From Minisyncoccota bacterium (lineage in GTDB: Bacteria; Patescibacteriota; Minisyncoccia; Phycocordibacterales; JAQTLZ01): a DNA stretch of 59,911 bases. The stretch lies in the NCBI GenBank assembly GCA_028714635.1, contig JAQTLZ010000005.1, positions 1-59,911 of the forward strand, in the 5' to 3' direction. The notes below the pieces were generated by a model that worked only from the letters and a program-made list of their open reading frames with translations, did not search any database and had not been told where the DNA came from. Made by a program: the position numbers and the translations under genes. The stretch's first letter is position 1, and every line of letters starts with the position of its first letter. Below, in pieces: positions 3,128 to 25,215 of the stretch.

Positions 3128-3159
3128 GATTTTGTTATGAGCGAAGCGAGTTAGAAAAT

Positions 3160-3274: not shown

Positions 3275-3304
3275 TAAATTATACTCACTACGTTCGTTAA
3301 TTTT

Positions 3305-7113: not shown

Positions 7114-7134
7114 TGTCAAGGACAGTCCTTGACA
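7114..7134. repeat. REP-like 21-bp palindrome upstream of the RAYT gene
   Basis: TGTCAAGGACAGTCCTTGACA, identical to the copy at 7790-7810. Confidence 0.85.
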
Positions 7135-7144
7135 TAATAGAGGG

Positions 7145-7774: not shown

Positions 7775-7789
7775 GATTAAGGGCCCGAG

Positions 7790-7810
7790 TGTCAAGGACA
7801 GTCCTTGACA
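7790..7810. repeat. REP-like 21-bp palindrome downstream of the RAYT gene
   Basis: TGTCAAGGACAGTCCTTGACA, identical to the copy at 7114-7134. Confidence 0.85.
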
Positions 7811-7935
7811 CCTTAAAAATAACAAAGAAAAGGCCCCATAAGGACGGAACCTTAAGGGGTGATCTTTTCCGTTGGTGATGACACTAGTATAGACGAATGA
7901 GGGGCCAAAAGTCAACAAAGCAGGTAAAACCGTCA

Positions 7936-8433: not shown

Positions 8434-8528
8434 TTTATCTAAATTATTAATAATAAATAATTGTACTCTTTTCTTTTCTCACTTACTAGATATCAAAAAG
8501 GATGAACTTCCTTAGCACGAAAGCGAGT

Positions 8529-8710
8529 CCCACACCTTTTGGGAAACTCACTGGGCTCTGCGCAAAACAAAGGAGCTTTTTAGGAAAACTGAATTGTTTG
8601 AGAAAACCGCCCCCGAAGAGGTGCGGTTTTTGAGTTTTCAATTTTCCGTGAAGAAAAGTGACTATTATTTAAGCGGAGAACCAGTGGGGCTGTTTTCCAA
8701 AAGGTGTGGG
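8529..8710. mobile_element. 182-bp MITE-like element with ~30-35-bp imperfect terminal inverted repeats and a 5-bp target-site duplication
   Basis: Left end cccacaccttttgggaaactcactgggctc, right end gagaaccagtggggctgttttccaaaaggtgtggg. CGAGT is directly repeated at 8524-8528 and 8711-8715. A terminator hairpin lies inside. Confidence 0.7.
8603..8631. terminator. bidirectional terminator-like hairpin inside the MITE downstream of rplB
   Basis: aaaaccgc...gcggtttt stem. Confidence 0.6.
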
Positions 8711-11762: not shown

Positions 11763-12953
11763 TTAGGCGATGACTTTCGTTACAACTCCGGCACCCACAG
11801 TCTTGCCTCCTTCTCGGATAGCAAATCGCTGTTGATCTTCAAGAGCAATCGGAGCAACCAATTTTACTTTGAAAGTAATCGTATCTCCTGGCATAACCAT
11901 TTCTGTCTTTTCTGGCAAAGTCACTTCTCCAGTCACGTCTGTTGTTCGGAAGTAGAACTGTGGCTTGTAACCAGTGAAGAACGGAGTATGTCGTCCGCCT
12001 TCTTCTTTCTTCAAGATGTACACTTCTGAAGTAAATTCTGTGTGAGGAGTAACTGAACCTGGCTTTGCGATAACCTGACCTCGGTGTACGTCTTCTTTTC
12101 GAGTACCTCGGAGCAAAATTCCAGCGTTGTCTCCTGCCATACCTTCTGAAAGCTGTTTGTTGAACATTTCAATACCAGTCACAGCAGTCTTTGCTGTTGG
12201 CTTGATACCAACGATTTCAACTTCCTCTCCAACTTTCACCATTCCTCTTTCAATTCTTCCAGTCACTACAGTACCTCGTCCTTCAATCGAGAAGATGTCT
12301 TCGATAGGCATAAGAAAAGGCTTGTCTGTTTCTCGCTTTGGAACTGGGATATAGGTATCAAGAGCGTTGGTGAGTTCAAGAATTTTCTTTACCCATTCAT
12401 CGTCTTTTGATGTTGCTTCAAGAGCTTTGAGTGCTGAACCTCGAATAACAGGAGCTCCTTTTCCATCAAAGCCTTGCTTTGTAAGGAGTTCTCGAACCTC
12501 TTCTTCAACGAGGTCTACGAGATCTTTGTCATCAACCATGTCTACTTTGTTTAGAAAGACGATGATCTTTGGCACTCCAACCTGCTTTGCGAGGAGAACG
12601 TGCTCACGAGTCTGTGGCATCACTCCGTCAGTAGCTGCGATAACGAGAATAGCACCGTCCATTTGTGCGGCACCGGTGATCATGTTCTTAATATAGTCGG
12701 CGTGTCCAGGAGCGTCGATGTGAGCGTAGTGTCGAGTTGCTGTTTCGTATTCGTTGTGAGAGAGGGCGATCGTAATACCTCGGGCCTTTTCTTCAGGCGC
12801 TGAGTCAATTTCGTCAACTTTTTTCAACTTCACTGTTTGTCCAGAGAGATGAAGTGAGTTAAGAATTGCCGCAGTAAGAGTTGTCTTCCCGTGGTCAACG
12901 TGACCGATGGTACCGACGTTTACGTGAGGCTTCGAGCGATTAAATTCTGCCAT
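11763..12953 (-). CDS. tuf: elongation factor Tu
   Basis: [23 protein letters not shown] and NKVD motifs. Start moved to MAEFNRSK at 12953, since the ORF-track start adds 19 non-homologous residues. Confidence 0.97.
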
Positions 12954-13075: not shown

Positions 13076-13103
13076 ATCATAACAAATGCCGAAAAGAAGT
13101 CAA
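13076..13103 (-). promoter_or_regulatory. sigma70-like promoter, TTGACT-N16-TATGAT, upstream of tuf
   Basis: Hexamers read on the minus strand. Adjacent to the terminator of the upstream surface-protein gene. Confidence 0.55.
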
Positions 13104-13111: not shown

Positions 13112-13143
13112 AAAGCCCCCACTAAAGCTTTAGTGGGGGCTTT
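13112..13143 (-). terminator. terminator-like palindrome after the 13166-16378 gene
   Basis: aaagcccccactaaagc / gctttagtgggggcttt. The T-run is short. Confidence 0.6.
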
Positions 13144-13165
13144 CCTATCCTCTTCGATAAGAGAT

Positions 13166-16100
13166 CTAGAACCCTAAGAGATGCCCGAAGGATTCAAGAA
13201 CCGAAGCGACACTACTGGTAGTCGGAGCAACGGAAAGACTTGTCACATTGAAGACTGCTGTATTAGTAAATTGAGCAGTTCCTCCTATATAGACCTTGAT
13301 TACATACGAACCAATTGGGGCACCAGTGGGAACTTGGAATGTAACATTATTACCATTAACCGTACCAGTAACAGAACTATAATTTCCAAAATAGACTGTT
13401 CCATAAGGGAACGCCACCGGACCATTAATCGTAACCATTGTTCCTGGATGCCCTGACCCTGGTGAAATAGAACTGATTGAGGGCGTTGCTGGCGTGGTAA
13501 CAGGAGGAAAACTCTTTCTAATACCAACATTCCCTGAATTATCTATGGGATCAATCGAGAATGTATAGGTAACACCCGCTGTTAATCCCGTCACATTCAT
13601 GCTCCCGACAGGACCGCTAATCTGATTTCCATTAACACTACTGTTAGGCGAACTTGTTATCTGGTAGTTCACAGTACCTCCGGAATTATCGCTTGCTCCG
13701 CTCCAATTCAAGGTCAAACTATTTGATGTTACGTTGGAGGTGGTAAAGGTGGAAGAGCCCGACCAGACAGGAGCCGTTGTGTCTGCAGCGGGACCCACCG
13801 TAATATTGACATACTTGTATACACCATCAGCGCTGTGAATTGTCAGCATTCCACTGCCGGTAGCAGTTGGAGTGTAAGTTCTTGTTGCAGCACCTGCGGT
13901 TCCTCCGATAGTTCCTGAAACAGATGAGGTAAAGTAGTCGAAGGCAGGTTGTGGAGAAAGGGCGACGCCAGATGCATTTTTTGCAGTGAATGTATATGTG
14001 TATGTCGTATTTTGTGTGAGACTGGTTGATCCTGCTACGTCGATGGAGGCGGTGGTTGGACAACCCGTAGTCGTCGCCGTAACCGTCTTTGCAGGAGAGC
14101 TGACATTGCCAGCACCATCAGTGGCTGTGATCGAGAAAGTATACGTTGTACAAGCGGAGAGGCTTGCAACACCAGTCCCACTATTCGAAGCGCCATTAAA
14201 AGTAAGGGTACTGCCGGTACCGCTCGGAGAACGGGTGATGGTGTAACTTGCGACTCCACTACCACCAGTGTTGTCGGTTGCTCCGCTCCAATAAAGTGAG
14301 AGACTATTGTTGCCTATACCTGAAGCAGTAAAGCTTGTAGGAGAAGTGGGCGCAGTGACGTCGGCACCTCCACCTGTAGCATTCACCGTAATTGTTTTAG
14401 AATTACTGCTGTTCGTTCCACCAATAATAGAAACCGACAAACTATACGTGCCCGCTACAACTGCTGGAATGGTGTAGCTTAGAGACGTCCCGTTTGCTGA
14501 GGAAGCTTGAGTTTGGTAGGGCGTTCCGTTGGCAGTATTTACGAGGGTTATCAAGTTTGGGTGAGCCGCGTCAGTGGAAAAATTAGTACCGCTAATGACC
14601 GCAGGTGTCGCTACTCCCGCTGTTACCGATGTTGGGGAAACGGAAGTGATGGTTGGAGCTGAGGGCGTAGTGGTAATCGTCACCGTCTTCGAATCTGTAA
14701 CCGTTCCGTATGATCCGGTACACGTGATGGTGTATGTCTTTGATTGCGTGAGGAGACCTGTATAAATACCAGTAGAATTGTAAGTTGCACCTGATGTAAC
14801 CGATCCGTTCGCTGTAGTAAAGTTGGTTCCCGTACATGAAGTGACGTTGGAAGATGTCCAAGTGAGATACGTTCCATTTCCAGATGGCAGTGAACTTGCT
14901 GCGACGGTCAGGGTGACGGAAGGGGTTGGTGTACCGGTAGCATTCACCGTAATTGTTTTAGAATTACTGCTGTTCGTTCCACCAACAATAGAAACTGACA
15001 AACTATACGTGCCCGCTACAACTGCTGGAATGGTGTAGCTTAGAGACGTCCCGTTTGCTGAGGAAGCTTGAGTTTGGTAGGGCGTTCCGTTGGCAGTATT
15101 TACGAGGGTTATCAAGTTTGGGTGAGCCGCGTCAGTGGAAAAATTAGTACCGCTAATGACCGCAGGTGTCGCTACTCCCGCTGTTACCGATGTTGGGGAA
15201 ACGGAAGTGATGGTTGGAGCTGAGGTAGCGTTCACCGTAACAGTTGCAGTATCACTTTTACCGCCAGAAGAAGCTGTCACCGTTACCGTACGCGCAGTCC
15301 CCGGAGCTGTGAGAAGTCCTCCACTTGAAATAGTCCCCGCAGTCGTAGTCCAAGAATAGGCGGGTTGTGTAGATAACGCGTGGGTAAACTGGTCTAAGGC
15401 AGTTGCAGTAAATTGCTGGGTTCCGTTAACTGTGACACTAGCAGTTTCTGGAGTAACAGAGATAGAAGTAAAGACTTGAGCTGCGTTTGACACCGTAACT
15501 TCTTTTGTACCGATTATCGTTCCGGAATAAGCGCTCACTGTCACCGGAAGTGACGTGCCCGTTATACTTGAGGGAGCTCTAAAGAGACCGCTTGAGTTAA
15601 TTGTCCCCCCAGTCGCATACCAAGTGAACGAGGACGGCTGTGTGCGAAGATCATTATTTTTCTGATCTTTCGCAGTTGCGGTAAATTGTATTGTTCCATT
15701 TGTCCCAACAGTAAGGCTCGAAGAAGTTGTTAATTCGATAGAACTGAAAACGGGTGTGTAGGAACCGCCACTATGACCACCACTTCCACCGCCACCTCCG
15801 CCACCACTACCACCTCCCGAAGCTACACAAAGAGAACCACTTAATGGGCTGTATTTTGTTGTAAGCGTACAGCCAGCTGGGAGCGAAGCGAAACAACTTG
15901 CACCAGTTATATTATTGAACAACGCGCCCCCACTGCATGGACCAGTTCCTCCTCCCGGCAATGACACGCACGCAAAACCAGTCAGCGTGCTATAGCCTGA
16001 AGCGCTGGTACATCCTGGCGGGAAATTTCCTGAAACTGTTCCACCAGCTTCAAAGTCTCGAATCACTGCTTCTATGGTCAGAGGACCAAAGAGAGAAGTT

Positions 16101-16378
16101 ACGTGAACGAGGTAAAGGAGTTTTTTACCAATGAGAATAGTTTGGAGAGCCGGGACAGTAGTGACTCCGTACTTCTTCAATGTCAGAGCTTTGGTCAGAG
16201 GACCAAAAGGACCGACAACACCAGGAGGAAGAATGCTTGCTTGGTAAGCGTGAATTCTTGCATCCGAAACTGCCGCGTGTACTGGCAAAGCAAATGAAAA
16301 AGCGAGCGCGGCTAGCGCCAAAATTCCTCCTATTATTGCAACGATTCTTGCTGGATTAACAGCGTGTGAATGACTCAT
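13166..16378 (-). CDS. giant secreted surface protein with PG-binding-like N-domain, Cys loops, Gly linker, Ig-like (Big_2/IPT-like) and FN3-like modules; ends in VLESFGHLLGF
   Basis: Signal peptide ending VHA-AV. Repeated Ig/FN3-like sequence patterns (LSLYWSGATDN...YTFSITATD), an internal 96-aa duplicated module, and a conserved C-terminal tag. Confidence 0.85.
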   Translation of the reverse strand: MSHSHAVNPARIVAIIGGILALAALAFSFALPVHAAVSDARIHAYQASILPPGVVGPFGPLTKALTLKKYGVTTVPALQTILIGKKLLYLVHVTSLFGPLTIEAVIRDFEAGGTVSGNFPPGCTSASGYSTLTGFACVSLPGGGTGPCSGGALFNNITGASCFASLPAGCTLTTKYSPLSGSLCVASGGGSGGGGGGGSGGHSGGSYTPVFSSIELTTSSSLTVGTNGTIQFTATAKDQKNNDLRTQPSSFTWYATGGTINSSGLFRAPSSITGTSLPVTVSAYSGTIIGTKEVTVSNAAQVFTSISVTPETASVTVNGTQQFTATALDQFTHALSTQPAYSWTTTAGTISSGGLLTAPGTARTVTVTASSGGKSDTATVTVNATSAPTITSVSPTSVTAGVATPAVISGTNFSTDAAHPNLITLVNTANGTPYQTQASSANGTSLSYTIPAVVAGTYSLSVSIVGGTNSSNSKTITVNATGTPTPSVTLTVAASSLPSGNGTYLTWTSSNVTSCTGTNFTTANGSVTSGATYNSTGIYTGLLTQSKTYTITCTGSYGTVTDSKTVTITTTPSAPTITSVSPTSVTAGVATPAVISGTNFSTDAAHPNLITLVNTANGTPYQTQASSANGTSLSYTIPAVVAGTYSLSVSIIGGTNSSNSKTITVNATGGGADVTAPTSPTSFTASGIGNNSLSLYWSGATDNTGGSGVASYTITRSPSGTGSTLTFNGASNSGTGVASLSACTTYTFSITATDGAGNVSSPAKTVTATTTGCPTTASIDVAGSTSLTQNTTYTYTFTAKNASGVALSPQPAFDYFTSSVSGTIGGTAGAATRTYTPTATGSGMLTIHSADGVYKYVNITVGPAADTTAPVWSGSSTFTTSNVTSNSLTLNWSGASDNSGGTVNYQITSSPNSSVNGNQISGPVGSMNVTGLTAGVTYTFSIDPIDNSGNVGIRKSFPPVTTPATPSISSISPGSGHPGTMVTINGPVAFPYGTVYFGNYSSVTGTVNGNNVTFQVPTGAPIGSYVIKVYIGGTAQFTNTAVFNVTSLSVAPTTSSVASVLESFGHLLGF
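14376..14664 (-). repeat. 289-bp intragenic direct repeat, copy 1
   Basis: Identical to 14937-15225 except for two substitutions. Encodes the IPT-like module PTITSVSPTSVTAGVATPAVISGTNFS... Confidence 0.9.
14937..15225 (-). repeat. 289-bp intragenic direct repeat, copy 2
   Basis: Offset by 561 nt (187 codons) from copy 1, with 2 mismatches in 289. Confidence 0.9.
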
Positions 16379-16467
16379 AATAATTTTATGATTGTTAATA
16401 AAAAAAATACTCCTTTGCTTTAATAGTACCTCTTCAGAGACTTAAATGATAATCGGTTTTCCACAAG

Positions 16468-16496
16468 AAAAACCGCCTTATTTATTGGCGGTTTTT
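16468..16496 (-). terminator. intrinsic terminator after the 16526-19114 gene
   Basis: accgcc-ttatttatt-ggcggt stem with a T-run on the minus strand. Confidence 0.7.
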
Positions 16497-16525
16497 CTTG
16501 TTTCTAGCTATTACTGACACCCCAC

Positions 16526-19114
16526 CTATTGCAAAGTAACACGCACTAGAGGAGAGATAATGTCTCCAGCATTTGTCTGTATCCAGAGAGACCCAGCACC
16601 CTTTGGCCAAGTACTTGGTATGTTTACAGTGGTTGTTTTCGGTGCAGTACCGCTATTACTGAGCAGGAATAATTGATGGCTAATTCCGCCTAAATCTTGA
16701 TAAATACCCTTGATGTTACTGACACGAACATCATCGCAATATTTTACTTCATGATTTCCAACTGCCCACGTTGTATTTTGAGAAGGTGTGACAATACTCA
16801 ATACCCCAGATGTACACGCGTCTTGAGCAAGTACAGATATCGATGGCGTAGAACATGTGACTGTCTGACCGCCAGAGGTGACTTTTACTGACTCGGTGTA
16901 AGACCCCGGAGTGGTGTAGGTTATGTTGAATATATTATTATCTGTTGGAGATCTGTAAGAACCACTAAACAACCATTCGTAGGAATAAGATCCACTGCCC
17001 CCACTTGCAGTTGCTGTAAATGTAATTGACTGGGTCACTTTCGCACTCGAAGGTGTCGCAGAGACAGAGCAAGAGAGGGGTGTGCCACTACCTGCACTCG
17101 TAGTTGTCACTGTAACCGTCTTCTCTACACTGACATTGCCCGCCGCATCTTTAGCTGTAATTGTGAAAGTATATCTAGTTCCAGGAGAAAGACCCGTAAC
17201 ACCCGTACCGCTATAAGCACCGTTGGGAGTGAGGGTGCTACCGCTACCGCCTGGGTCACGAGTGATGGTGTAGCCTGTGACTCCCACATTATCGGTAGCA
17301 CCGCTCCATTGAAGCGAGAGACTATTGGCGCCAACACCATACGCAGTAAAGCTTGTGGGAGGAGTTGGTCGAGTGGTATCTGACCCGGCATTGATCGAGA
17401 ATGAATTGTTGCTTTCATCGCACACGTTACGATCTTCATCACATACTTTTACCTTGAACGATCCGCTCCAAGAGGAATTAATATTGAGCTTAGTGTAATT
17501 ATTTACATTAGGTTGATTCGTAACATTCCCCGCCACAGTTCTGGAAATAAGAGCTGAAGTGAATGCGTCTGCACCAGAAGAGTTAAGAAGATGAATCCTG
17601 ATATGGCTTGCGTCCAGATTCAGACCAAACAAGACAGGAATGATTCCATTTGAGGTTACGAAACGATCTCCCCCATTCGGACTAATGACCGTAATTGATT
17701 GGGTATCTCCCCCAGGAATCGTCAAAGTCCCGCTATTGCTCGTACCCTTGCTGTTAGTAACGGACACCGTATGATTTCCAGAAGAAGGAAGAGGAGAGAG
17801 AGTAAAGAGAAAACCCGCTGAACTCTGGAGAGAACCGGAAATCGGTGATCTACTGTCAAAATTGACTTTCGTGTCAGAAGTAAACCGAGAACCATTAATA
17901 TAATACATTCCGACTACTCCTGTTGTAGAGACAGAAGTTATGGAAGGAGGCAAATCAGTTGTTGATGATACAACATTTACTGTTATCGATTTCGTGAAGC
18001 TTGGATGAAGAGAGTCAGAAAGATTTATACAAGTGATGCTGTAGGTGTATGTCTGTCCTAGAGAAAGAGAAGACTTGGACTCACTCCCGGAAGCAAGACC
18101 GGACCCGCTCCAACTTCCAGATTTTGTACAAAGTGCTACCGGGTCTGTATGAACTGGATCATTTAATTTCCAAGCAAGCGTGACTGAATCAGTCGGCAAT
18201 ACTGAAATGGATGAGACAGCCTGGCCATTTGCGGTGAATGAGAGAGAGGCGGTGGAATTGCCTCCGTCACCCCCTGATATTACCGGAGGAGGAATATCTG
18301 CTGTCTGACTTGCTGGGAGACGAACTACGCGGATGGTATCGGCGAGTGTCACACCACTAGAGAGAGTAAATTTCACATTGTATACTCCAACCGCTGGGTA
18401 AGTGTGGCTTAAGACAAAGTTAGTCGCAGTTGTCTCTACAGTACTGTCTACATGAGATGTCTTCCCATCTCCCCAATTTATATCCACACCCGATTTTAAT
18501 GCAGTCTGTGTTCTTCCTTCAAGCTCCCATACTGCTACTTTGCCAGCTTGGGCGCTCCCTGGACGCTTGAAATCAACAAAGCATTCAGTAAGACCCGTAG
18601 AGTGACCAAGCCCCGTACTTGGCGGAGGACAGACTACGATCGCGCTGAAACGAAGGGACGAAGCAGCACCGCCATAAGGCAAAAGAGGATTGGTTCGTAC
18701 AAGAACGTGTGAAGACAAATCTTTTCCATTTGGAATCACCGGAACAGAAGGGGCGCTCGAAGAAGTTCCTGAAAAAGTCGGGGTAATCTTGTGCTGGCCA
18801 GGTTTTGTGTACTTATGAGTACGCGTAAAAACTTCTTTCCGGTCGGAAGATTGAGCCTGCAAAACTCCTTTTTCATCTGCCGTCCCCTGTTCACCCCAAT
18901 CTATGTTCCAAGAGACCGCCACACCCCCGGGGACAAGAAGCTCTAACGCAACTGTTTCAATCCCGTTTATAGGCAGAGCTCTTTGGCTCACGACATAAGG
19001 AACCGAAACGGAATTTGTTGCAGTGCCTACCGCTCCGGCAATACTCACAAAAGCGGAAAGGCCCAAGACAAGAAGGGATGCTCCTAATCCAAGAGTTGAT
19101 AGATATTTCTTCAT
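16526..19114 (-). CDS. giant secreted surface protein with PKD-like and FN3-like modules
   Basis: Signal peptide. PKD-like NIDWGEQG/INWGDGKTS...HTYPAVGVYNV motifs and an FN3 module (LSLQWSGATDNVGVTGYTITRDP). No C-terminal tag. Confidence 0.85.
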   Translation of the reverse strand: MKKYLSTLGLGASLLVLGLSAFVSIAGAVGTATNSVSVPYVVSQRALPINGIETVALELLVPGGVAVSWNIDWGEQGTADEKGVLQAQSSDRKEVFTRTHKYTKPGQHKITPTFSGTSSSAPSVPVIPNGKDLSSHVLVRTNPLLPYGGAASSLRFSAIVVCPPPSTGLGHSTGLTECFVDFKRPGSAQAGKVAVWELEGRTQTALKSGVDINWGDGKTSHVDSTVETTATNFVLSHTYPAVGVYNVKFTLSSGVTLADTIRVVRLPASQTADIPPPVISGGDGGNSTASLSFTANGQAVSSISVLPTDSVTLAWKLNDPVHTDPVALCTKSGSWSGSGLASGSESKSSLSLGQTYTYSITCINLSDSLHPSFTKSITVNVVSSTTDLPPSITSVSTTGVVGMYYINGSRFTSDTKVNFDSRSPISGSLQSSAGFLFTLSPLPSSGNHTVSVTNSKGTSNSGTLTIPGGDTQSITVISPNGGDRFVTSNGIIPVLFGLNLDASHIRIHLLNSSGADAFTSALISRTVAGNVTNQPNVNNYTKLNINSSWSGSFKVKVCDEDRNVCDESNNSFSINAGSDTTRPTPPTSFTAYGVGANSLSLQWSGATDNVGVTGYTITRDPGGSGSTLTPNGAYSGTGVTGLSPGTRYTFTITAKDAAGNVSVEKTVTVTTTSAGSGTPLSCSVSATPSSAKVTQSITFTATASGGSGSYSYEWLFSGSYRSPTDNNIFNITYTTPGSYTESVKVTSGGQTVTCSTPSISVLAQDACTSGVLSIVTPSQNTTWAVGNHEVKYCDDVRVSNIKGIYQDLGGISHQLFLLSNSGTAPKTTTVNIPSTWPKGAGSLWIQTNAGDIISPLVRVTLQ

Positions 19115-19199
19115 ACAAAAATGATACTTAGTAATAAATATGACTCAATACATTATATACATCCCTTATAAAAACGCATCCACAACCAAACCCCGGCGA

Positions 19200-22109
19200 T
19201 TAGAATCCCAATAAATGACCAAAAGCTTCGAGAATCGAGGCCGTCGCTTCCGCAAGATTTTTTTGATAGAAATAGGAGCTAGGACCGCTTACCATTCCTC
19301 CCCCACTATATGAAGGGAAAGTTGTAGTATAAGTCGAGACTGCGGAGTAGGTGGGAATCGCGGTCGCACTTGCTGCCGTAGTATGGGTAGGTGCTGCAGT
19401 CACAGTGGGCGGAATGGTTGAGGTTGCCCCGCCTCCGCTTGTGGAGAATGAAACAGAATCTGATGAGGGATTATTTGAAAGATCATAAACTAGTACGGTA
19501 AGAATATGCTCACCTGCAGAGCCCGGATTAAAAGAATAACTAAATGGCGCGGAAGTGTCGTTTCCGATAAAACTATCGTCAATGTAAAAGTCTGCTTTAG
19601 CCACTCCAACATTATCAGAAGCGCTAATAGAGACAGTCACTATTCCGGAGACAGTGGCGTCTGAAGCGGGATAAGTAATGGAAACAGTTGGAGGTGTTGT
19701 ATCTGGGACAGTTCCCGAAGTGGCTGTCGGAGCAGCTGTCGGAGCAGCCGTGGGTTGCGGTGTCGTAGTGGTTCTATTGGTGCCCGAACTTCCCCCTCCG
19801 CCACTGTGACGAATTGCGGTTGGAGCGGGATTAGAATATGAGTTATTTACATTCCCATTGGTAGCAGAATCGGGAACTGTGGTATTAGGATTGGAATATG
19901 AAGTTGAGGTGTTCGAAATTCCTGAACCGCAACTGCAGGCTTGAATCCCACCATCTCTACCAGGTTCCCCTTTACTACGACTGACAGGAGTAAATGCATA
20001 TCTGCCTTTACTGTCATACCCTTTTGTATAGCAATATATATTTTTCTTCTCGCAGTCATTATCCGGAGAACATTGCTTAGTAGGGATGTCTTTACAAAAA
20101 TCTGTTAGGCTTGGGTACGACCTATGCGCCCTATCCGCTTCAGGTTGCGTTGAGTTCTGGCCAAGATTCGAATATGTCATTATTTGATTCGAATCACACG
20201 GACTTGCTGTATATTTGGGTTTACAACTGGAAGGACCTTTGTTTGAATTTCCAGAACCTGAACCAGAACCAGGAGTTCCGTCTGTTCCACTTGAACCACC
20301 ATCAGCCGGCCCTCCAGTTGCTGGAGAATTATCAGCTGGTGGAGCGGTGTCTGCCGGAGTTGTATCGGCCGGAGGAGTGTCTGCGGGAGGACAGATAAAA
20401 GGTCCGATGGGTCCAAGAAGATCAGGCCAAATAGGCTCTATATGATTTTTGAAAAAGGGACATAAAAAACCTTGATCGGTTTCGTCCTCCAGTGTTGCAG
20501 GAGGTTCTTCCGCGGCAGGAGGAAACTTTCCGATATCATCTTTTGGAGTTTCAGGTTCCGGAGCAGAAGGTTCTTGTGCAGTCGCGTCATCGGGTGGCGC
20601 AGAAGTTCCATCATCTGGCGGGGCATCAGCGGATGGTTCATCTGTAGCTGGAGTATTATCATCAGGCGGTGGTGGCGGGACTTTATCTGGAGGAACATTC
20701 AGCGATGGAGGAGGAAACATCCCACTATTCCCCGGCTCTGTGATATCGGGAGGTTCTACGGGTTCTGGAAAATCATTAGGCGGAACACCCTGAAGGCCTG
20801 GGGGATTCTGAGCGGGCGGTGGTGGAGGTGAAATTGGCAGAGGCAGTATACTTGCTGGCGGGCAATATTGAAGAGGAGGATTGAGGAGAGGAATCCTGTA
20901 ACATCCTGGATCAGCGCTTACAACTGCATTACTAGTATCATCGCTCACGGGCTTCTCGATAACTGTCACAGAATCTTTCTCCTCATCAAAAGCTTCCGGC
21001 GCTTTCGCGCTGACTTTTATATTAGGAAAGTAGATACCAGGCTCCCCATAACTACAAGTAGGAAAACTAAAACTTGTTTCTGAAGTATCGATTGGCCCAT
21101 TTGTATCTCCATCACCACACGAGTAGGTCATTGTGTATGGTGGGTCTTGGTCAGTTACCCAAGTAGCAATGACGTACGACGGATCTCTCACAAAGATTTT
21201 GTCAGGAGTATGGGGATTCGCGACGAGAGTTACACTTAAAAAAGGTCCGCTAACAACAGTGACACCCGCTTTCCCTACAACTTTCCCACTTGTCGCAATC
21301 ACATCGCAATCTCCGACTTTATTACCGCTATAGTGCCCCTTTTCATCAATACCCACGCAAGTCCCAGAAGTCCATTTAATTGCAGGAATTAGCCCTGTAA
21401 ATTTTTGTCCATTTTGATCTTTAGGTTCAGCTGTGGCATCACCGCCTCCATTTAAAGCTATTTTGGGAGGATATGCAGCTACCTTAAGCGAGGAAAAAAC
21501 GGGTGTCCCCACAAATTCCCATTTTCCGTTGGCACCCTTTCTTAAATCTCCTTGATGGACACCTTTGTCGGGGAATTTATCATTTATAAGTCCAGATACG
21601 GTTGGTCCGTCAGTTTCACCTTTTCTAGTAATAGGATCGAAAGCCCCATTTCCCAAGAAATGAAAGCTGAAGCCCCCGTTTGGTGGAGAGCCATACAATG
21701 CAACTGATTTATTTAGTATCGTTATCTTATCTCTCGCATGACTATTTAAATATTGAAGCATCAAATCCTCGAATTTTTTCTCGTCAATGCATTCGTTTTT
21801 GTTTGGATCTGCTATTTTGACTTGTTTAGATGATCCATCCCATCCCATAATACAGACTTGCCCTTTTTCGGTAACTCTGTACCCCAACATCACTACGGTA
21901 TAGTCTGTACCTCCAACAGTAGTATATATAAATATGAGCGGCCCGAAGATATGCTGTTCTCCATTCGCGTCAATCAATATCTTGTCGAGTATATGATCTC
22001 CTGGTGCAAAGACTTGGGGAGGTAAAACGTCGGCTCGGGCAACTCCAGAGAAGGAAAGAAAAAAAACTAGCGAAAGAAATACTAGAGAAAAGATCCTTGT
22101 CTTTTGCAT
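19200..22109 (-). CDS. giant secreted surface protein with Pro-rich linker, Cys-rich region and Ig-like domain; ends in ILEAFGHLLGF
   Basis: Signal peptide ending ARA-DV. Roughly 200 aa of P/D/T-rich low complexity, an Ig-like TPPTVSITYPASDATVSG...DNVGV module, and the conserved C-terminal tag. Confidence 0.85.
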   Translation of the reverse strand: MQKTRIFSLVFLSLVFFLSFSGVARADVLPPQVFAPGDHILDKILIDANGEQHIFGPLIFIYTTVGGTDYTVVMLGYRVTEKGQVCIMGWDGSSKQVKIADPNKNECIDEKKFEDLMLQYLNSHARDKITILNKSVALYGSPPNGGFSFHFLGNGAFDPITRKGETDGPTVSGLINDKFPDKGVHQGDLRKGANGKWEFVGTPVFSSLKVAAYPPKIALNGGGDATAEPKDQNGQKFTGLIPAIKWTSGTCVGIDEKGHYSGNKVGDCDVIATSGKVVGKAGVTVVSGPFLSVTLVANPHTPDKIFVRDPSYVIATWVTDQDPPYTMTYSCGDGDTNGPIDTSETSFSFPTCSYGEPGIYFPNIKVSAKAPEAFDEEKDSVTVIEKPVSDDTSNAVVSADPGCYRIPLLNPPLQYCPPASILPLPISPPPPPAQNPPGLQGVPPNDFPEPVEPPDITEPGNSGMFPPPSLNVPPDKVPPPPPDDNTPATDEPSADAPPDDGTSAPPDDATAQEPSAPEPETPKDDIGKFPPAAEEPPATLEDETDQGFLCPFFKNHIEPIWPDLLGPIGPFICPPADTPPADTTPADTAPPADNSPATGGPADGGSSGTDGTPGSGSGSGNSNKGPSSCKPKYTASPCDSNQIMTYSNLGQNSTQPEADRAHRSYPSLTDFCKDIPTKQCSPDNDCEKKNIYCYTKGYDSKGRYAFTPVSRSKGEPGRDGGIQACSCGSGISNTSTSYSNPNTTVPDSATNGNVNNSYSNPAPTAIRHSGGGGSSGTNRTTTTPQPTAAPTAAPTATSGTVPDTTPPTVSITYPASDATVSGIVTVSISASDNVGVAKADFYIDDSFIGNDTSAPFSYSFNPGSAGEHILTVLVYDLSNNPSSDSVSFSTSGGGATSTIPPTVTAAPTHTTAASATAIPTYSAVSTYTTTFPSYSGGGMVSGPSSYFYQKNLAEATASILEAFGHLLGF

Positions 22110-22184
22110 TCTTTTATTTTAGCAACTCTAGCTCTTCCTGTCTCACAACATGTGTGTACAAGTATAAAAATTCTGCTAAATAAT

Positions 22185-22210
22185 AAAACCACGCTTTTGG
22201 CGTGGCTTTT
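22185..22210 (-). terminator. intrinsic terminator after the 22231-22773 gene
   Basis: ccacgc-ttttg-gcgtgg stem flanked by A and T runs. Confidence 0.65.
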
Positions 22211-22230
22211 GCGATGAGTGAGTTGTAACC

Positions 22231-22773
22231 TCACTGCGAAGAGGTGAATTCCAGTTTTGAGAACTGGGTTTCATCGTCACCGTAGATATAATCGGGACTT
22301 TGCTCGGCCTCCATTATCTCTTGAAGGTCTTCGGGTGTCTCTGTGAGAGCAAAAGCGTCTGAACGCTTGCTCTCTTTCGTGCTATAGACCCAGCGGACCT
22401 TTATCGTTCCATCCTTCTGGAGACGCACCCGATAGACAACCGCCGAACGCTCGGACTTCTTGTCGCTGTTACCGACACCAGTAAGACACTCGAATCGGAA
22501 AAAGGTGTCGCCACGAAACGAGGTCATCCAGCCACGGCACAATTCTCCCAATGTCAGCGTCCACTTGCCGTTAGAGCGGATTGCAGTGTAGACGAGAAGG
22601 CCGTAATCGTTTTCACCGAACCTCACTACCTGATAGAGGTGGTAGGGCTGGTCATCAAACAACAGGCTGTCGTTAGTCCAGATGCCAACGATACAGCTAG
22701 AGATCGGTTTCTCTTCCTCTGCGCGAACAAAAAAACATGCCACGAGAAGAAACATGATCATGAATGCTTTCAT
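22231..22773 (-). CDS. hypothetical secreted protein (GC-rich orphan)
   Basis: Start set at MKAFMIMFLLVACFFVRA, a signal peptide. A sampled 60-nt line is about 53 percent GC. Has its own promoter (22845-22873) and terminator (22185-22210). Confidence 0.6.
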   Translation of the reverse strand: MKAFMIMFLLVACFFVRAEEEKPISSCIVGIWTNDSLLFDDQPYHLYQVVRFGENDYGLLVYTAIRSNGKWTLTLGELCRGWMTSFRGDTFFRFECLTGVGNSDKKSERSAVVYRVRLQKDGTIKVRWVYSTKESKRSDAFALTETPEDLQEIMEAEQSPDYIYGDDETQFSKLEFTSSQ

Positions 22774-22844
22774 GAAATCCCCCTTTAAAGGTACTGCCCT
22801 GTTTCTTACTTGCATCGCTCGGAAACAGATCCTAAGCTATATTA

Positions 22845-22873
22845 ATTTAACAGTAAAATAGGCTTTTTGTCAA
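22845..22873 (-). promoter_or_regulatory. sigma70-like promoter, TTGACA-N17-TTAAAT, upstream of the 22231-22773 gene
   Basis: Hexamers read on the minus strand, immediately after the fusA terminator. Confidence 0.55.
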
Positions 22874-22888
22874 TGTTATCCACAGCAC

Positions 22889-22916
22889 GAAAAAAGGTCC
22901 TAGTAGGGCCTTTTTT
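22889..22916 (-). terminator. terminator-like hairpin after fusA and its 3-prime element
   Basis: aaaaaaggtcc-tagta-gggcctttttt. Confidence 0.6.
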
Positions 22917-22937
22917 CGTGCATGAGAGTAATAGAGA

Positions 22938-23059
22938 TTTTGTTTATTTTGAGATGAAATGCGAGGCGGAAGTGCGGCTTGCGCCTAAGCTGTAGTACTC
23001 CTACAGCGCAGAAGCAAACGCAAGCTTCCAACGAAGCAGTTCGCTCAAAATAAACAAAA
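22938..23059 (-). repeat. palindrome-closed 122-nt element abutting the fusA stop codon
   Basis: Perfect 16-bp inverted repeat ttttgtttattttgag (22938-22953) / ctcaaaataaacaaaa (23044-23059). Inner stems gcttgcg/cgcaagc and ctgtag/ctacag. Ends 2 nt from the fusA stop. Confidence 0.7.
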
Positions 23060-23061: not shown

Positions 23062-25215
23062 TTACTTTCTAGCTTCAATAATAGTAGTAGCCACATTCGG
23101 CGGTACAGCCTCATAGTGATCAAATTCCATCGTGTAGCTTGCTCGGCCTTCTGACATCGAGCGGAGAGTAGTGACGTAACTGAACATTTCAGCAAGCGGA
23201 ACTTTTGCATCAATCACTTTGTTCATTCCCCTCTCGCTCATACCATCGATCACCGCTCGCTTCGAACTCAAGTGTCCAGTGATGTCTCCCATGAATTTAT
23301 CAGGTGTGACAACTTCCACTTTCATAATCGGCTCAAGAATAACTGGCTTTGCTCGTTTTGCAGCATCTTGGAAAGCTTGCGAAGCGGCAATTTTGTAAGC
23401 GATTTCAGACGAGTCCACGTCGTGGTATGAACCGAAGGTAAGTTCACAAGAAACATTTACCATTTTGTATCCAGCAACAATTCCTCGCTCCATTGCTTCC
23501 TTCACACCTTTCTCAACAGCAGGAATAAATTCATTTGGGATAACACCTCCTTTAATATTGTCGATGAATTCAAATTCTTCTTCTCGGTGTACGTTCTTCG
23601 GAATTTTCTTTCCTTCTGCAAGCTCAAGCGGTTCAAGAGGTTTGATCGTAATGCGCACGTGTCCGTATTGTCCCTTACCTCCAGATTGTTTGATGTATTT
23701 GTGTTCAGCTTCAGCACTGCCCTGAATCGTTTCTTTGTATGCCACTTGAGGCTTGCCGACATTTGCTTCCACTCCGAATTCTCGTTTCATTCGGTCAACC
23801 ATGATCTCAAGCTGGAGCTCTCCCATACCTTTAATAACCGTCTCCCCTGTTTCAGAATCGGCAACCACTTTAAAAGTAGGATCTTCATCAGAAAGACGCT
23901 TCAAGGCAAATCCCATTTTCTCCTGGTCGGCTTTTGTCTTTGGTTCGATTCGAAGGGAGATCACCGGCTCCATGAATTTAATTCTTTCAAGAATGATTGG
24001 ATGATTTTCATCACAGAAGGTATCAGAAGTCTTTGCTTCTTTCAGTCCCACAGCAGCGGCAATTTCTCCAGCGAATACTTTCTTCACTTCTTCACGCTTG
24101 TCAGCCTGAAGTCTAACGATTCGGCCGAGTCTTTCTTTCTTTCCACTTGTGACGTTGTAGATGTATGAACCTGCTTCAAGTGTCCCAGAATAGACGCGGA
24201 AGAAAGTAAGCTGTCCAACGAATGGATCGCTTTGGAGTTTAAATGCGAGTGCAGCAAATGGTTCAGAATCATCAGCGTGTCGTTCAATAATCTGATCTGT
24301 ATTTGGATCAATTCCTTTAATAGGTGGAATATCGAGCGGAGATGGAAGATAATCAACGACGGCGTCGAGCACAAGCTGAACTCCTTTGTTTTTGAGTGCA
24401 GAACCGGTAAATACAGGAACGATTTCTACTTTGAGACACGCTTCTCGAAGAAGTTTTTTCAAAACATCCACAGGAGGAACTTTTCCTTCAAAATACTCAT
24501 TCATGAGTTTCTCATCTCGTTCAACGATCTTTTCTACGAGCTCATTTCGGTATTTCTGTGCAGATTCAAGATATTCGGCAGGAATTTCTTTTTCAACAAT
24601 AGTGCCTCCCATTTCTCCTTCGAAATAGAACGCTTTCATTTTAAGAAGATCGATAACTCCCTCGAATTTTTCTTCTTCTCCGATAGGAAGCTGCATTCGC
24701 ACAGCGTTTTTATTGAGACGATTGAGAATTGATTGGAATGATCGCTCGAAGCTTCCACCTGTTCGGTCGAGCTTGTTGATGAAACAGATTCGGGGCACGT
24801 TTCCTTCATCCGCGTATCTCCAGTTGGTTTCTGATTGGGGTTCCACACCGGCTACTCCGTCGAATACCACGACAGCACCGTCGAGCACGCGAAGAGATCG
24901 CTTCACTTCCACAGTAAAGTCGATGTGCCCTGGGGTATCGATAACATTGAAACGATATTTTGTTTCTTTCTTTGAGCGGTCTGGAAGATCGGTCTTGTTC
25001 CAGAAACAAGTAATCGCAGCGGCAGTAATCGTGATACCTCGTTCTCGTTCCTGTTCCATCCAGTCAGTCGTCGTCTCTCCTTCGTGCACCTCGCCGATCT
25101 TATGAATTTCTCCGGTGTAATACAAAATTCGCTCGGACGTGGTGGTCTTTCCGGCGTCGATGTGCGCGATGATTCCGAAGTTACGAACTTTTGCGAGTGG
25201 ATAGTCTCTTTCCAT
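23062..25215 (-). CDS. fusA: elongation factor G
   Basis: AHIDAGKTTTSERILYYTG, DTPGH and NKLDR motifs, 717 aa. Confidence 0.97.
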   Translation of the reverse strand: MERDYPLAKVRNFGIIAHIDAGKTTTSERILYYTGEIHKIGEVHEGETTTDWMEQERERGITITAAAITCFWNKTDLPDRSKKETKYRFNVIDTPGHIDFTVEVKRSLRVLDGAVVVFDGVAGVEPQSETNWRYADEGNVPRICFINKLDRTGGSFERSFQSILNRLNKNAVRMQLPIGEEEKFEGVIDLLKMKAFYFEGEMGGTIVEKEIPAEYLESAQKYRNELVEKIVERDEKLMNEYFEGKVPPVDVLKKLLREACLKVEIVPVFTGSALKNKGVQLVLDAVVDYLPSPLDIPPIKGIDPNTDQIIERHADDSEPFAALAFKLQSDPFVGQLTFFRVYSGTLEAGSYIYNVTSGKKERLGRIVRLQADKREEVKKVFAGEIAAAVGLKEAKTSDTFCDENHPIILERIKFMEPVISLRIEPKTKADQEKMGFALKRLSDEDPTFKVVADSETGETVIKGMGELQLEIMVDRMKREFGVEANVGKPQVAYKETIQGSAEAEHKYIKQSGGKGQYGHVRITIKPLEPLELAEGKKIPKNVHREEEFEFIDNIKGGVIPNEFIPAVEKGVKEAMERGIVAGYKMVNVSCELTFGSYHDVDSSEIAYKIAASQAFQDAAKRAKPVILEPIMKVEVVTPDKFMGDITGHLSSKRAVIDGMSERGMNKVIDAKVPLAEMFSYVTTLRSMSEGRASYTMEFDHYEAVPPNVATTIIEARK

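What the first reader, a model, noticed from the sequence alone, without database searches (positions are those of the whole stretch)
13166..22815. A ~10 kb island of giant surface proteins splits fusA from tuf
In the canonical str operon, tuf follows fusA. Here four genes lie between them, encoding proteins of 1070, 862, 969 and 180 aa, all with signal peptides. Terminator-like hairpins lie at 22889-22916, 22185-22210, 16468-16496 and 13112-13143, and promoter-like elements at 22845-22873 and 13076-13103. tuf therefore appears to have been given its own promoter. Placing adhesin-like cargo inside the most conserved operon of the genome is unusual.
Basis: partly seen in the sequence, partly recalled or inferred. 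Interest (0 to 1): 0.65.

Follow-up and report, generated by a model that had tools for sequence, protein, structure and literature searches.

The report
Variable surface-protein slot between fusA and tuf
Four genes for secreted surface proteins do sit between the translation-factor genes fusA and tuf in this uncultured landfill bacterium, but related bacteria routinely carry different extra genes at this same junction, so the site is a lineage-typical variable slot and not a one-off intrusion.

Summary
On the minus strand the order is rpsL, rpsG, fusA, four ORFs of 180, 969, 862 and 1070 aa, then tuf, rpsJ and rplC. All four ORFs have signal-peptide-like N-termini. The three large ones are arrays of fn3, PKD, TIG and Big_7 Ig-like domains.

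The organism is a Patescibacteria (CPR) Paceibacteria MAG from a landfill. In 160 related loci the fusA-to-tuf spacer is hypervariable. Its median is 1.05 kb, 78% exceed 500 bp and 42% exceed 1.5 kb. By contrast rpsL-rpsG (median 36 bp) and tuf-rpsJ (median 81 bp) stay tight. Cargo differs even between genomes with at least 90% identical EF-G.

The tuf promoter plus leader is conserved in relatives that carry other cargo, so it predates this island. Strong hairpins after fusA are common in the lineage. The island shows no mobility genes and no flanking repeats. The three large genes have host-like GC3.

The best reading is a permissive operon boundary that has accumulated lineage-specific surface proteins. 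A C-terminal motif (ASxLE[SA]FGH[LF]LGF) shared by two island proteins and a third secreted protein elsewhere is the most unusual detail. Transcription could not be tested.

The parts
23062..25215 (-). fusA (EF-G, 717 aa), the last gene of the upstream unit rpsL (26564-26142), rpsG (26055-25585), fusA
   Evidence: Pfam GTP_EFTU, EFG_III, EFG_IV and EFG_C. An identical protein is on NCBI contig JAQTSW010000020.1.
22938..23059 (-). Long imperfect hairpin of about 122 nt that starts 3 nt after the fusA stop. Its base is a 16-bp perfect helix.
   Evidence: Together with the terminator it folds at -79.7 kcal/mol, z -9.8. Contigs of co-occurring relatives join about 22896 to 23063/23072, i.e. they lack it.
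22885..22921 (-). Terminator-like hairpin (A6 stem U6, bidirectional type) that closes the rpsL-rpsG-fusA unit
   Evidence: (-18.4 kcal/mol, z -6.1).
22844..22873 (-). Promoter-like site TTGACA-18-TAAATT with TG, upstream of p180
   Evidence: 10/12 match.
22231..22773 (-). p180: small secreted or lipoprotein-like ORFan (MKAFMIMFLLVAC..., lipobox-like LVAC) with anomalous GC3 of 0.61
   Evidence: (only a self hit among 5.8e9 proteins). The AlphaFold model is all-beta with pLDDT 55 and gives only weak avidin/lipocalin-like matches.
22185..22209 (-). Terminator-like hairpin after p180
   Evidence: z -4.6.
19200..22109 (-). p969: signal peptide, unknown N-terminal region, Pro-rich and Cys-rich linkers, one Big_7 Ig domain (aa 807-872) and a C-terminal ASILEAFGHLLGF tag (codons 19241-19203)
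   Evidence: Pfam Big_7 E=3e-18. An exhaustive HMMER search matched only through the Big_7 domain. Tag.
16526..19114 (-). p862: signal peptide, PKD-like repeats, fn3 (585-663) and PKD (683-755). It is separated from p969 by 85 nt without a hairpin, so it is probably co-transcribed.
16463..16501 (-). Terminator-like hairpin after p862
   Evidence: (z -6.0).
13166..16378 (-). p1070: signal peptide, a possible degenerate PG-binding-like segment, three Cys-bracketed short repeats, a Gly linker, Ig-like/TIG x3/fn3 x2 domains and a C-terminal ASVLESFGHLLGF tag (codons 13207-13169). It contains a 293-nt internal duplication at 99% identity (14372-14664 and 14933-15225).
   Evidence: Pfam fn3 2.9e-14 and TIG 2.2e-8. 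Duplication. PG-binding-like hhalign P=5e-4, probability 31%. Tag.
13112..13143 (-). Perfect 16+16 palindromic terminator-like hairpin after p1070
   Evidence: (-28 kcal/mol, z -5.3).
13076..13103 (-). tuf promoter TTGACT-16-(TG)TATGAT, conserved in relatives, followed by a leader of about 120 nt
11763..12953 (-). tuf (EF-Tu, 396 aa from the ATG at 12953), heading the tuf-rpsJ-rplC... unit
   Evidence: The tuf-rpsJ spacer is 31 nt here and has a median of 81 nt in relatives.

Best explanation
In Paceibacteria (Patescibacteria/CPR) the boundary between fusA and tuf is a transcription-unit boundary, not an intra-operon spacer. fusA ends in strong hairpins, and tuf carries its own conserved promoter and heads the tuf-rpsJ-S10 unit. 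Genes placed there have no polar cost, so the junction has become a fast-turnover slot that holds different genes in different genomes.

In this landfill MAG the slot holds four lineage-specific genes in three predicted units: [p180], [p969-p862] and [p1070]. Each unit is closed by a hairpin, and the first has a clear promoter. The products are predicted to be exported by Sec. p180 looks like a small lipoprotein-like beta protein. The three giants are stalks of Ig-like domains (fn3, PKD, TIG, Big_7) typical of cell-surface or adhesion proteins. Two of them end in a 13-residue amphipathic tag that probably retains or docks them at the envelope. Their likely role is envelope or host-contact function in an epibiotic ultrasmall bacterium.

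Shown: the gene order, the domain content, the hairpins and promoter motifs, the lineage-wide variability, conservation of the tuf promoter, and the absence of mobility signatures.

Inferred: actual transcription units, export, surface location, adhesion function, and the role of the tag.
For: 1. Lineage. The best EF-G matches are 79% identical and belong to Zambryskibacteria, Nomurabacteria, Kaiserbacteria and Paceibacterota MAGs. The NCBI name of the same-organism MAG is Candidatus Pacebacteria.

2. The slot.
- The fusA-tuf spacer has a median of 1052 bp and ranges from 67 to 6712 bp in 88 resolved loci.
- 28 more loci run beyond 1.5 kb without reaching tuf.
- For comparison, rpsL-rpsG has a median of 36 bp (maximum 629) and tuf-rpsJ a median of 81 bp (maximum 640).
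- Pairs with 90-94% identical EF-G differ by kilobases: 5947 against 231, 4247 against 996, 571 against 5815.

3. Cargo.
- It is not homologous between loci.
- It is functionally mixed (PG_binding_1 in 8/149, response regulators, FtsX/ABC, dnaE, recA, alaS).
- The flank upstream of rpsL, in contrast, is syntenic (Peptidase_M50 28/149, ComEC 12, MBL 11, SOD 6).
- Large secreted proteins are enriched. Signal-peptide-like proteins make up 24.5% against 15.8% (p=0.002). Signal-peptide-like proteins of at least 400 aa occur at 2.3 against 0.65 per 10,000 aa.

4. Boundary.
- Perfect hairpins of at least 9 bp lie within 150 nt after fusA in 41% of relatives. The figure is 10% after tuf and 1% inside fusA.
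- The tuf promoter and leader are conserved across different cargo and are present in tight-spacer genomes.

5. Native composition and no mobility signatures.
- GC3 is 0.33-0.38 against 0.38-0.42 in the flanks.
- There are no flanking direct repeats of 10 nt or more and no tRNA genes. No integrase or transposase family matched any of the four island proteins.
- Nothing matched in phages or plasmids.

6. Protein nature: Pfam domains and signal-peptide heuristics. In cultivated Saccharibacteria, multiple adhesins are needed for epibiotic growth (PMC10633639).
Against: - No transcript data exist, so terminators and promoters are predictions from E. coli-type consensus in a phylum where they have not been validated.
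- No promoter-like site was found upstream of p1070, and only a weak one (9/12) upstream of p969.
- p180 has GC3 of 0.61, unlike its neighbours, so at least one gene may be recently acquired.
- Signal peptides were judged by hydropathy only.
- Cargo in relatives includes housekeeping genes, so part of the variability may reflect rearrangement and not insertion.
- The nearest sequenced relative is only 79% identical in EF-G, so no strain-level empty site is available for this genome.
Confidence: 0.7

Rival explanations
1. A recently acquired genomic island. On this view the four genes arrived together by horizontal transfer (an integrative element or transformation) and split a previously intact str operon in this organism.
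For: - All four proteins lack orthologues in 160 related loci. p180 is an ORFan in 5.8e9 proteins.
- p180 has a deviant GC3 of 0.61.
- Relatives with near-empty sites exist.
- An IS200-like transposase sits elsewhere in the same ribosomal cluster.
- The window encodes ComEC, RecJ and type IV pilus genes, so DNA uptake is plausible.
Against: - GC3 of the three large genes equals that of the host.
- The island has no integrase, transposase, tRNA or flanking repeats.
- Nothing matched in phages or plasmids.
- The tuf promoter and the hairpin after fusA predate the cargo.
- Similar giant Ig-domain proteins occur elsewhere in the window: 44306-40149, 2154-715 and 59785-56513.
- A co-occurring sister organism has related island ends at about 85-88% nucleotide identity, which suggests vertical descent with divergence.
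Confidence: 0.15
2. Expression hitch-hiking. On this view the surface-protein genes are kept at this site because read-through from the very strong str promoter, or proximity to highly expressed genes, gives them high, growth-coupled expression. The hairpins would act as attenuators or RNA-stabilising or processing structures, not as full terminators.
For: - All four genes are co-oriented with the operon.
- 79% of cargo ORFs in relatives are co-oriented.
- A long stem of about 122 nt directly after fusA looks more like a processing or stability element than a simple terminator.
- p969 and p1070 lack convincing promoters of their own.
- Operon concatenation with functional read-through is documented for tufB-secE in Salmonella (PMC6735719).
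Against: - Co-orientation is equally high (81%) in control flanks, so it is not specific to the slot.
- Each unit ends with a strong hairpin, three of them next to a T-run.
- Cargo in relatives includes genes with no need for high expression, and 21% is on the opposite strand.
Confidence: 0.12
3. An assembly or binning artefact. On this view a chimeric contig joins a ribosomal locus to unrelated surface-protein genes.
For: - The source is a complex landfill metagenome with many related Paceibacteria cross-mapping on fusA and tuf.
- Logan contigs break at the palindromic hairpin at 13113.
Against: - An independent NCBI assembly spans fusA to p1070 at 99.97% identity.
- A single 2264-nt Logan contig spans p969, p180 and the fusA 3' end with no mismatch.
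- Depth is even (about 12-16x) across the island in run X1.
- The same kind of occupied junction is seen in 88 independent assemblies, including a complete 993-kb chromosome (L017).
Confidence: 0.02

Closest known systems
[quoted passage not shown] 2019, PMC6735719; Brandis 2021, PMC8046335)
   Same: Lineage-specific genes unrelated to translation are lodged between otherwise collinear, conserved translation operons. The flanking units stay intact and co-oriented. Terminator-promoter junctions are present.
   Different: In those cases the insertions fall between the units as defined in E. coli (rpoBC|str, str|S10). Here the break is fusA|tuf, which is inside the E. coli str operon. It is also occupied in most members of the lineage and turns over quickly.
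Split of fusA from tuf in Rickettsia prowazekii, leaving rpsL-rpsG-fusA and tuf-rpsJ (Syvanen et al. 1996, J Bacteriol; recalled from memory, not retrieved here)
   Same: tuf is detached from fusA and heads the S10 unit, and rpsL-rpsG-fusA forms its own unit.
   Different: In Rickettsia the two parts are far apart after recombination between tuf copies. Here they remain neighbours and co-oriented, with a variable cargo of 0.1 to more than 10 kb between them.
Hotspots of gene gain between conserved core genes, for example the pneumococcal capsule locus between dexB and aliA (general knowledge, not tested here)
   Same: Highly conserved flanks bracket non-homologous, surface-related cargo that differs between relatives. 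The organism carries competence genes (comEC, recJ, type IV pilus).
   Different: There is no evidence here of allelic exchange by homologous recombination. The cargo classes are heterogeneous and include housekeeping genes. The divergence scale is genus to family, not strain.
Large Ig-like-repeat surface adhesins of bacteria (Big, fn3, PKD and TIG arrays), and the adhesins required for epibiotic growth in Saccharibacteria (PMC10633639)
   Same: Signal peptide plus tandem beta-sandwich domains, Ser/Thr/Gly-rich linkers, internal near-identical domain duplication and lineage specificity.
   Different: None of the recognised anchors tested for was found: no LPXTG or other known C-terminal sorting signal, and no significant PG_binding_1 match. 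Instead there is a short C-terminal amphipathic motif with no match in NCBIfam. There is no sequence orthology to the characterised adhesins.

Membership tests
Canonical str operon (rpsL-rpsG-fusA-tuf as one unit) | Gene order rpsL, rpsG, fusA, tuf on one strand | tested here: met
   The order and strand are kept.
Canonical str operon (rpsL-rpsG-fusA-tuf as one unit) | Contiguity: a short fusA-tuf spacer (about 70-150 nt) with no intervening genes | tested here: not met
   The spacer is 10.1 kb and holds four ORFs. In relatives the median is 1052 bp.
Canonical str operon (rpsL-rpsG-fusA-tuf as one unit) | Co-transcription of tuf from the rpsL promoter without an internal terminator | not testable with these tools
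   No RNA runs are available. Prediction argues against co-transcription: four strong hairpins and a conserved tuf promoter.
Mobile genomic island / integrative element | Integrase, recombinase or transposase within or beside the island | tested here: not met
   Pfam and NCBIfam scans of all four proteins show none.
Mobile genomic island / integrative element | Flanking direct repeats (att or target-site duplication), or a tRNA target | tested here: not met
   The two boundary spacers share no direct repeat of 10 nt or more. The window has no tRNA genes.
Mobile genomic island / integrative element | Composition or codon usage that deviates from the host | tested here: inconclusive
   GC3 is 0.33-0.38 for the three large genes against 0.38-0.42 in the flanks, so they are not deviant. 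p180 has GC3 of 0.61, which is deviant.
Inter-operon insertion / core-gene-flanked hotspot | The same junction is occupied by different, non-homologous cargo in related genomes while the flanks stay syntenic | tested here: met
Inter-operon insertion / core-gene-flanked hotspot | The junction coincides with a terminator-promoter boundary that exists independently of the cargo | tested here: met
   Met at the level of sequence prediction. Hairpins after fusA occur in 41% of relatives against 1% inside fusA. The conserved tuf promoter is also present in tight-spacer genomes.
Ig-like-repeat cell-surface adhesins | N-terminal secretion signal | tested here: met
   Hydropathy heuristic only. AXA-like sites are visible in the sequence.
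Ig-like-repeat cell-surface adhesins | Tandem beta-sandwich domains (fn3, PKD, TIG, Big) | tested here: met
   Pfam: fn3 2.9e-14 and TIG 2.2e-8 (p1070); PKD 2.8e-10 and fn3 3.7e-10 (p862); Big_7 3e-18 (p969).
Ig-like-repeat cell-surface adhesins | A recognised envelope anchor (LPXTG or PG_binding were the ones tested; SLH was not scanned for separately) | tested here: inconclusive
   There is no C-terminal LPXTG. Pfam PG_binding_1 does not hit the p1070 N-terminus at E<=1. A profile built from PG_binding_1 cargo proteins of relatives gives hhalign P=5e-4, probability 31%.
Ig-like-repeat cell-surface adhesins | Demonstrated binding to a host or substrate | not testable with these tools
   This requires an experiment.
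Known C-terminal sorting signals (sortase LPXTG, exosortase PEP-CTERM, rhombosortase GlyGly-CTERM, archaeosortase PGF-CTERM) | Tripartite signal: a signature motif, then a TM helix, then a basic tail at the extreme C-terminus | tested here: not met
   The proteins end ...ASxLE[SA]FGH[LF]LGF-stop, with no TM helix or basic tail. No NCBIfam sorting-domain model matches at E<=0.1.

The most novel reading that the evidence does not exclude
The fusA|tuf junction of Paceibacteria may be a dedicated exchangeable cassette site for envelope or host-contact proteins. Cargo would be swapped by natural transformation and homologous recombination that uses the ultra-conserved fusA and tuf genes as universal flanks, as in the pneumococcal capsule locus. 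Separately, the ASxLE[SA]FGH[LF]LGF C-terminus may be a previously undescribed envelope-retention or sorting signal of this lineage.
Probability: 0.12. Interest if true: 0.65.

Novelty: new member of a known kind. Interest (0 to 1): 0.35.

Why it matters
For this window, the result turns an apparently startling intrusion into the best-conserved operon into something ordinary for the lineage. It also corrects the causal story about the tuf promoter.

More generally, it documents that in Paceibacteria the translation-gene supercluster is porous at defined points. These are fusA|tuf above all, and also rpsG|fusA and rpsJ|rplC. At fusA|tuf the content turns over between genera and is enriched for large secreted proteins.

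Ribosomal loci are the backbone of MAG phylogenomics and binning, and contigs often break here. Knowing about this slot helps assembly and annotation. It also points to an easily located place, between two universally recognisable genes, to look for the fast-evolving surface proteins that probably determine host range in these uncultured epibionts.

Tried and rejected
- Rfam gathering scan and tRNA scan of the whole window found nothing.
- The C-terminal tag was searched as a 3-sequence profile against 5.8e9 proteins. Only 31 word-sharing candidates turned up and none scored E<=10. The profile is too short for significance at that database size, so this shows rarity of the words, not absence. 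A first attempt failed because the query was under 40 aa.
- Homologue searches for p180 and for the 339-aa tag-bearing protein returned only self hits.
- An exhaustive HMMER search with p969 returned 13,435 hits. Every one of the best 150 listed matched through the single Big_7 domain, so no full-length relative was found.
- AlphaFold without an alignment was uninformative for the p969 N-terminal 237 aa (pLDDT 40). For p180 it gave pLDDT 55, and the Foldseek PDB search gave only weak avidin/lipocalin-like barrels (best E=0.067). This is not used as evidence of function.
- An exact-protein lookup for EF-Tu found nothing.
- There are no RNA runs for the locus, so transcription units remain predictions.
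- A diversity-generating retroelement was considered. The only inter-gene repeat (14271-14357 against 17289-17375, 78% identity) has no adenine-specific mismatch pattern by inspection. No reverse-transcriptase domain was seen in the window ORFs that were scanned, though not all ORFs were scanned. Rejected.
- The joint 12933->23309 in run X2 was rejected as an empty-site allele. Only 26 nt lie on one side, it would delete parts of both genes, and it comes from a far more abundant organism.
- Contig ends piling up just after fusA were considered as extra evidence of hypervariability. The excess over the upstream side is modest and partly reflects truncated matches, so it is not used.

Full report
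**Observation.** The window carries the following genes on its minus strand:
- rpsL (26564-26142)
- rpsG (26055-25585)
- fusA (25215-23062)
- four ORFs: 22773-22231 (180 aa, or 194 aa from an upstream ATG), 22109-19200 (969 aa), 19114-16526 (862 aa) and 16378-13166 (1070 aa)
- tuf (12953-11763), rpsJ (11731-11330) and rplC

Each of the four has one N-terminal hydrophobic segment and an AXA-like cleavage site. The 180-aa protein also has a lipobox-like LVAC.

Pfam finds fn3 x2 and TIG x3 in the 1070-aa protein, fn3 and PKD in the 862-aa protein, and Big_7 in the 969-aa protein.

The two promoter-like sites match 10 of 12 positions and have an extended -10 TG.

An independent NCBI MAG contig (GCA_028711105.1) is 99.97% identical over 14.3 kb, including fusA, three island genes and the start of the fourth. 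Contigs of two landfill metagenome runs cover the junctions.

**What organism.** EF-G is at most 79% identical to anything in GTDB species representatives or JGI metagenomes. The best matches are all Patescibacteria of the Paceibacteria type: Zambryskibacteria, Nomurabacteria, Kaiserbacteria and Paceibacterota. No closer relative is available, so there is no strain-level empty site for comparison.

**The junction in relatives.** I located rpsL, rpsG, fusA, tuf, rpsJ and rplC by tblastn in 160 related loci.
- The fusA-to-tuf distance is resolved in 88 loci. It ranges from 67 to 6712 bp with a median of 1052 bp. 78% exceed 500 bp and 42% exceed 1.5 kb.
- Another 28 loci run beyond 1.5 kb (nine of them the full 10 kb) without reaching tuf.
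- rpsL-rpsG (median 36 bp, maximum 629) and tuf-rpsJ (median 81 bp, maximum 640) are tight.
- rpsG-fusA and rpsJ-rplC are intermediate, with 34% and 25% above 500 bp.
- Genome pairs whose EF-G is 90-94% identical differ by kilobases at this junction: 5947 against 231, 4247 against 996, 571 against 5815, 1689 against 579.

**The cargo in relatives.**
- It is essentially non-homologous between loci.
- None of the four window proteins has more than a single-domain match in any locus.
- A Pfam scan of 149 cargo proteins finds 109 families, mostly singletons. The most frequent are PG_binding_1 (8 proteins), response regulators (4) and FtsX (3). Housekeeping genes such as dnaE, recA and alaS also occur.
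- The same scan on 149 proteins from the flank upstream of rpsL shows strong synteny instead: Peptidase_M50 28, ComEC 12, MBL 11, SOD 6, RNase H 5 and RecJ 4. These are the same genes that lie upstream of rpsL in the window.
- The cargo is enriched for proteins with one N-terminal hydrophobic segment (24.5% against 15.8%, p=0.002).
- It is also enriched for large secreted proteins (2.3 against 0.65 per 10,000 aa). Among the closest relatives with cargo, 7 of 16 carry at least one. Several of these have PG_binding_1 followed by Ig-like domains and sit directly upstream of tuf.

**The boundary is older than the cargo.** Within 150 nt after the fusA stop, 41% of relatives have a perfect hairpin of at least 9 bp and 29% have one of at least 12 bp. 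The corresponding figures are 10% and 5% after tuf, and 1% and 0% inside fusA.

Upstream of tuf, many relatives have TTGAC[AT]-16/17-TGnTA[TG][TG]AT about 75-150 nt before the ATG. This includes genomes with spacers of only 103-158 bp. In a MAFFT alignment the window's promoter and the following ...CGCA... segment fall in the same columns as those of L005, L012, L037, L043, L048, L087 and L092, which carry unrelated cargo.

Hence tuf did not acquire a promoter because of this island. The fusA|tuf site is a unit boundary across the clade, with tuf tightly tied to rpsJ. This resembles the Rickettsia arrangement, which I recall from memory. It also resembles the insertions between operons of the same supercluster described for Proteobacteria (PMC6735719, PMC8046335). 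Searches of the paper library found no description of this junction in CPR.

**Is it foreign?**
- Total GC is slightly raised (0.46-0.48 against 0.44-0.46). This comes from codon position 2, which reflects 53-65% Ser/Thr/Gly/Ala/Pro/Asn in these proteins.
- GC3 of the three giants is 0.33-0.38, against 0.38-0.42 in fusA, tuf, rpsG, rpsL and rplC.
- The 180-aa gene is different, with GC3 of 0.61. It has no homologue other than itself among 5.8e9 proteins.
- The island has no integrase or transposase, no tRNA and no shared boundary repeat of 10 nt or more. Nothing matched in phage or plasmid collections.
- Similar giant secreted Ig-domain proteins occur elsewhere in the window: 44306-40149 (1385 aa), 59785-56513 (1090 aa) and 2154-715 (479 aa with PG_binding_1).
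- The ribosomal cluster of this genome is also interrupted between rplB and rpsS by a PGDYG protein, an IS200-like transposase on the opposite strand and an unknown ORF. After rplE it is interrupted again by the 479-aa wall-binding protein.

**Co-occurring relatives.** In the landfill runs, a contig of different abundance (7x against 12x in X1, 14x against 7x in X2) matches only 13113-13213 at 88% identity. That stretch covers the terminator plus the last 15 codons of p1070, including the tag. The contig then diverges, with only short patches of similarity further in.

At the other end, contigs of relatives join the fusA stop region to about 22896. They lack the 122-nt long hairpin, and one retains a p180-like 5' region at about 88% identity. 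This suggests a sister genotype with related island ends and different internal content. The contig sequences could not be read, so this remains suggestive.

**The proteins.** An exhaustive HMMER search of 1.8e9 representatives with p969 found many hits. All of the best 150 listed matched through the Big_7 domain, so the protein has no full-length relative. p1070 contains a 293-nt internal duplication at 99% identity and shares an fn3 module with p862 at 78% DNA identity.

p1070 and p969 end in ASVLESFGHLLGF and ASILEAFGHLLGF. A third secreted protein outside the island (33248-32229, 339 aa) ends in ASVLESFGHFLGF. The motif has three notable properties:
- It has a helical hydrophobic moment well above shuffles (p 0.01-0.03).
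- It lacks the TM helix and basic tail of sortase- or exosortase-type signals.
- It hits no NCBIfam model.

My working hypothesis is an amphipathic C-terminal helix for membrane or envelope retention, comparable to the C-terminal anchor helix of E. coli PBP5 (from memory). This is inference only.

A degenerate PG-binding-like segment in p1070 is possible but unproven (Pfam negative; hhalign P=5e-4).

**Mechanism proposed.** Three predicted units lie between two conserved units:
- P(22873-22844), then p180, then T(22209-22185).
- A weak P(22144-22116), then p969-p862 (85-nt spacer, no hairpin), then T(16501-16463).
- p1070 (no convincing promoter), then T(13143-13112).
- After that, P(13103-13076), then tuf-rpsJ-rplC...

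The products are exported and displayed at the envelope. In a phylum where cultivated members live as epibionts and need adhesins (PMC10633639), host or substrate contact is the most likely role. The site itself is best explained as a permissive boundary where insertions cause no polarity. It is therefore a neutral-to-useful parking place with rapid turnover.

I put 0.70 on this explanation. The rivals are recent horizontal acquisition (0.15), selection for read-through expression (0.12) and artefact (0.02).

**Verdict.** The finding is real, but it is ordinary for its lineage. The notion of a singular violation of the str operon, and the idea that tuf gained a promoter as a result, are not supported.

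What remains of interest is the lineage-wide hypervariable slot between two of the most conserved genes, its enrichment for large secreted proteins, and the unexplained C-terminal motif.

Interest is 0.35. Novelty is a new member of a known kind: insertion hotspots flanked by core genes, and inter-operon insertions in the translation supercluster.

Noticed in passing
window 13169-13207, 19203-19241 and 32232-32270 (minus strand): Three secreted proteins (1070, 969 and 339 aa) end in the same 13-residue motif, A-S-[VI]-L-E-[SA]-F-G-H-[LF]-L-G-F-stop. It is amphipathic, has no TM helix or basic tail, matches no NCBIfam model, and is not seen in 160 related loci. It may be a lineage-specific envelope-retention or sorting tag.
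   Followed up: partly
window 6342-8710: The S10 operon is interrupted between rplB (9570-8719) and rpsS/rplV/rpsC (6150-4642). The inserted genes are a PGDYG-domain protein (8433-7936, minus), an IS200-like Y1 transposase on the opposite strand (7145-7774, plus; PF01797 E=1e-11) and an unknown 206-aa ORF (6962-6342, minus).
   Followed up: partly
window 715-2154 (minus): A 479-aa secreted protein with Kre9/Big_7 Ig domains and a C-terminal PG_binding_1 domain (E=1e-15) directly follows rplE (2815-2267), where the rest of the spc operon would be expected.
   Followed up: no
window 22938-23059, 8529-8710 and 3139-3295: Three long stem structures (about 120-185 nt) have 15-19 bp near-perfect basal helices. 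Each starts within about 10 nt after the stop codon of a conserved translation gene (fusA, rplB, rplN). Their z-scores range from -6 to -10, and the arms share no sequence. Contigs of co-occurring relatives lack the one after fusA. They could be processing or stability elements, or small palindromic insertions.
   Followed up: partly
window 22231-22773 (minus): The 180-aa gene has GC3 of 0.61, against 0.30-0.53 for every other gene measured in the window. It is an ORFan with a lipobox-like LVAC. The low-confidence model is an all-beta barrel.
   Followed up: partly
window 14372-14664 and 14933-15225: A 293-nt direct repeat at 99% identity, spaced 561 nt apart, lies inside the 1070-aa gene. It is a recent duplication of a TIG-like module. 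The Gly-rich region around 15776-15817 attracts many cross-mapping and indel-bearing contigs in the metagenomes.
   Followed up: no
window 13113-13213 (runs X1, X2): A contig of a co-occurring relative (3.2-5.1 kb, with a different abundance ratio between samples) shares only the terminator and the C-terminal tag codons at 88% identity. It then diverges, with only short patches of similarity further in. This is a different tag-bearing gene, probably at the same position.
   Followed up: partly
window 25306-25521 (minus): A 71-aa ORF with two predicted hydrophobic helices lies in the 369-nt spacer between rpsG and fusA. It is annotated as a gene in the NCBI MAG. The rpsG-fusA spacer exceeds 500 bp in 34% of relatives.
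   Followed up: no
window 35507-35524 and 35659-35676: A perfect 18-nt inverted repeat with 134 nt between the arms lies inside the coding region of an RNase H-domain gene (35756-34995). This is far beyond chance for a 60-kb window.
   Followed up: no
window 27297-39605; loci L001-L161, upstream flanks: The block upstream of rpsL (M50 peptidase, MBL-fold protein, SOD, ComEC, RNase H, RecJ) is syntenic across many Paceibacteria. This contrasts with the variable fusA|tuf junction. The tag-bearing 339-aa gene is itself a lineage-specific insert between SOD and ComEC.
   Followed up: partly
window 16526-19114 (p862, aa 210-249): A weak partial match (E=8e-8, 31 bits against a cut-off of 300) to NCBIfam NF058578, 'CPR pilus system RbmA-like protein PamR'. 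The similarity is at domain level only. Type IV pilus genes lie at 46546-52514.
   Followed up: no
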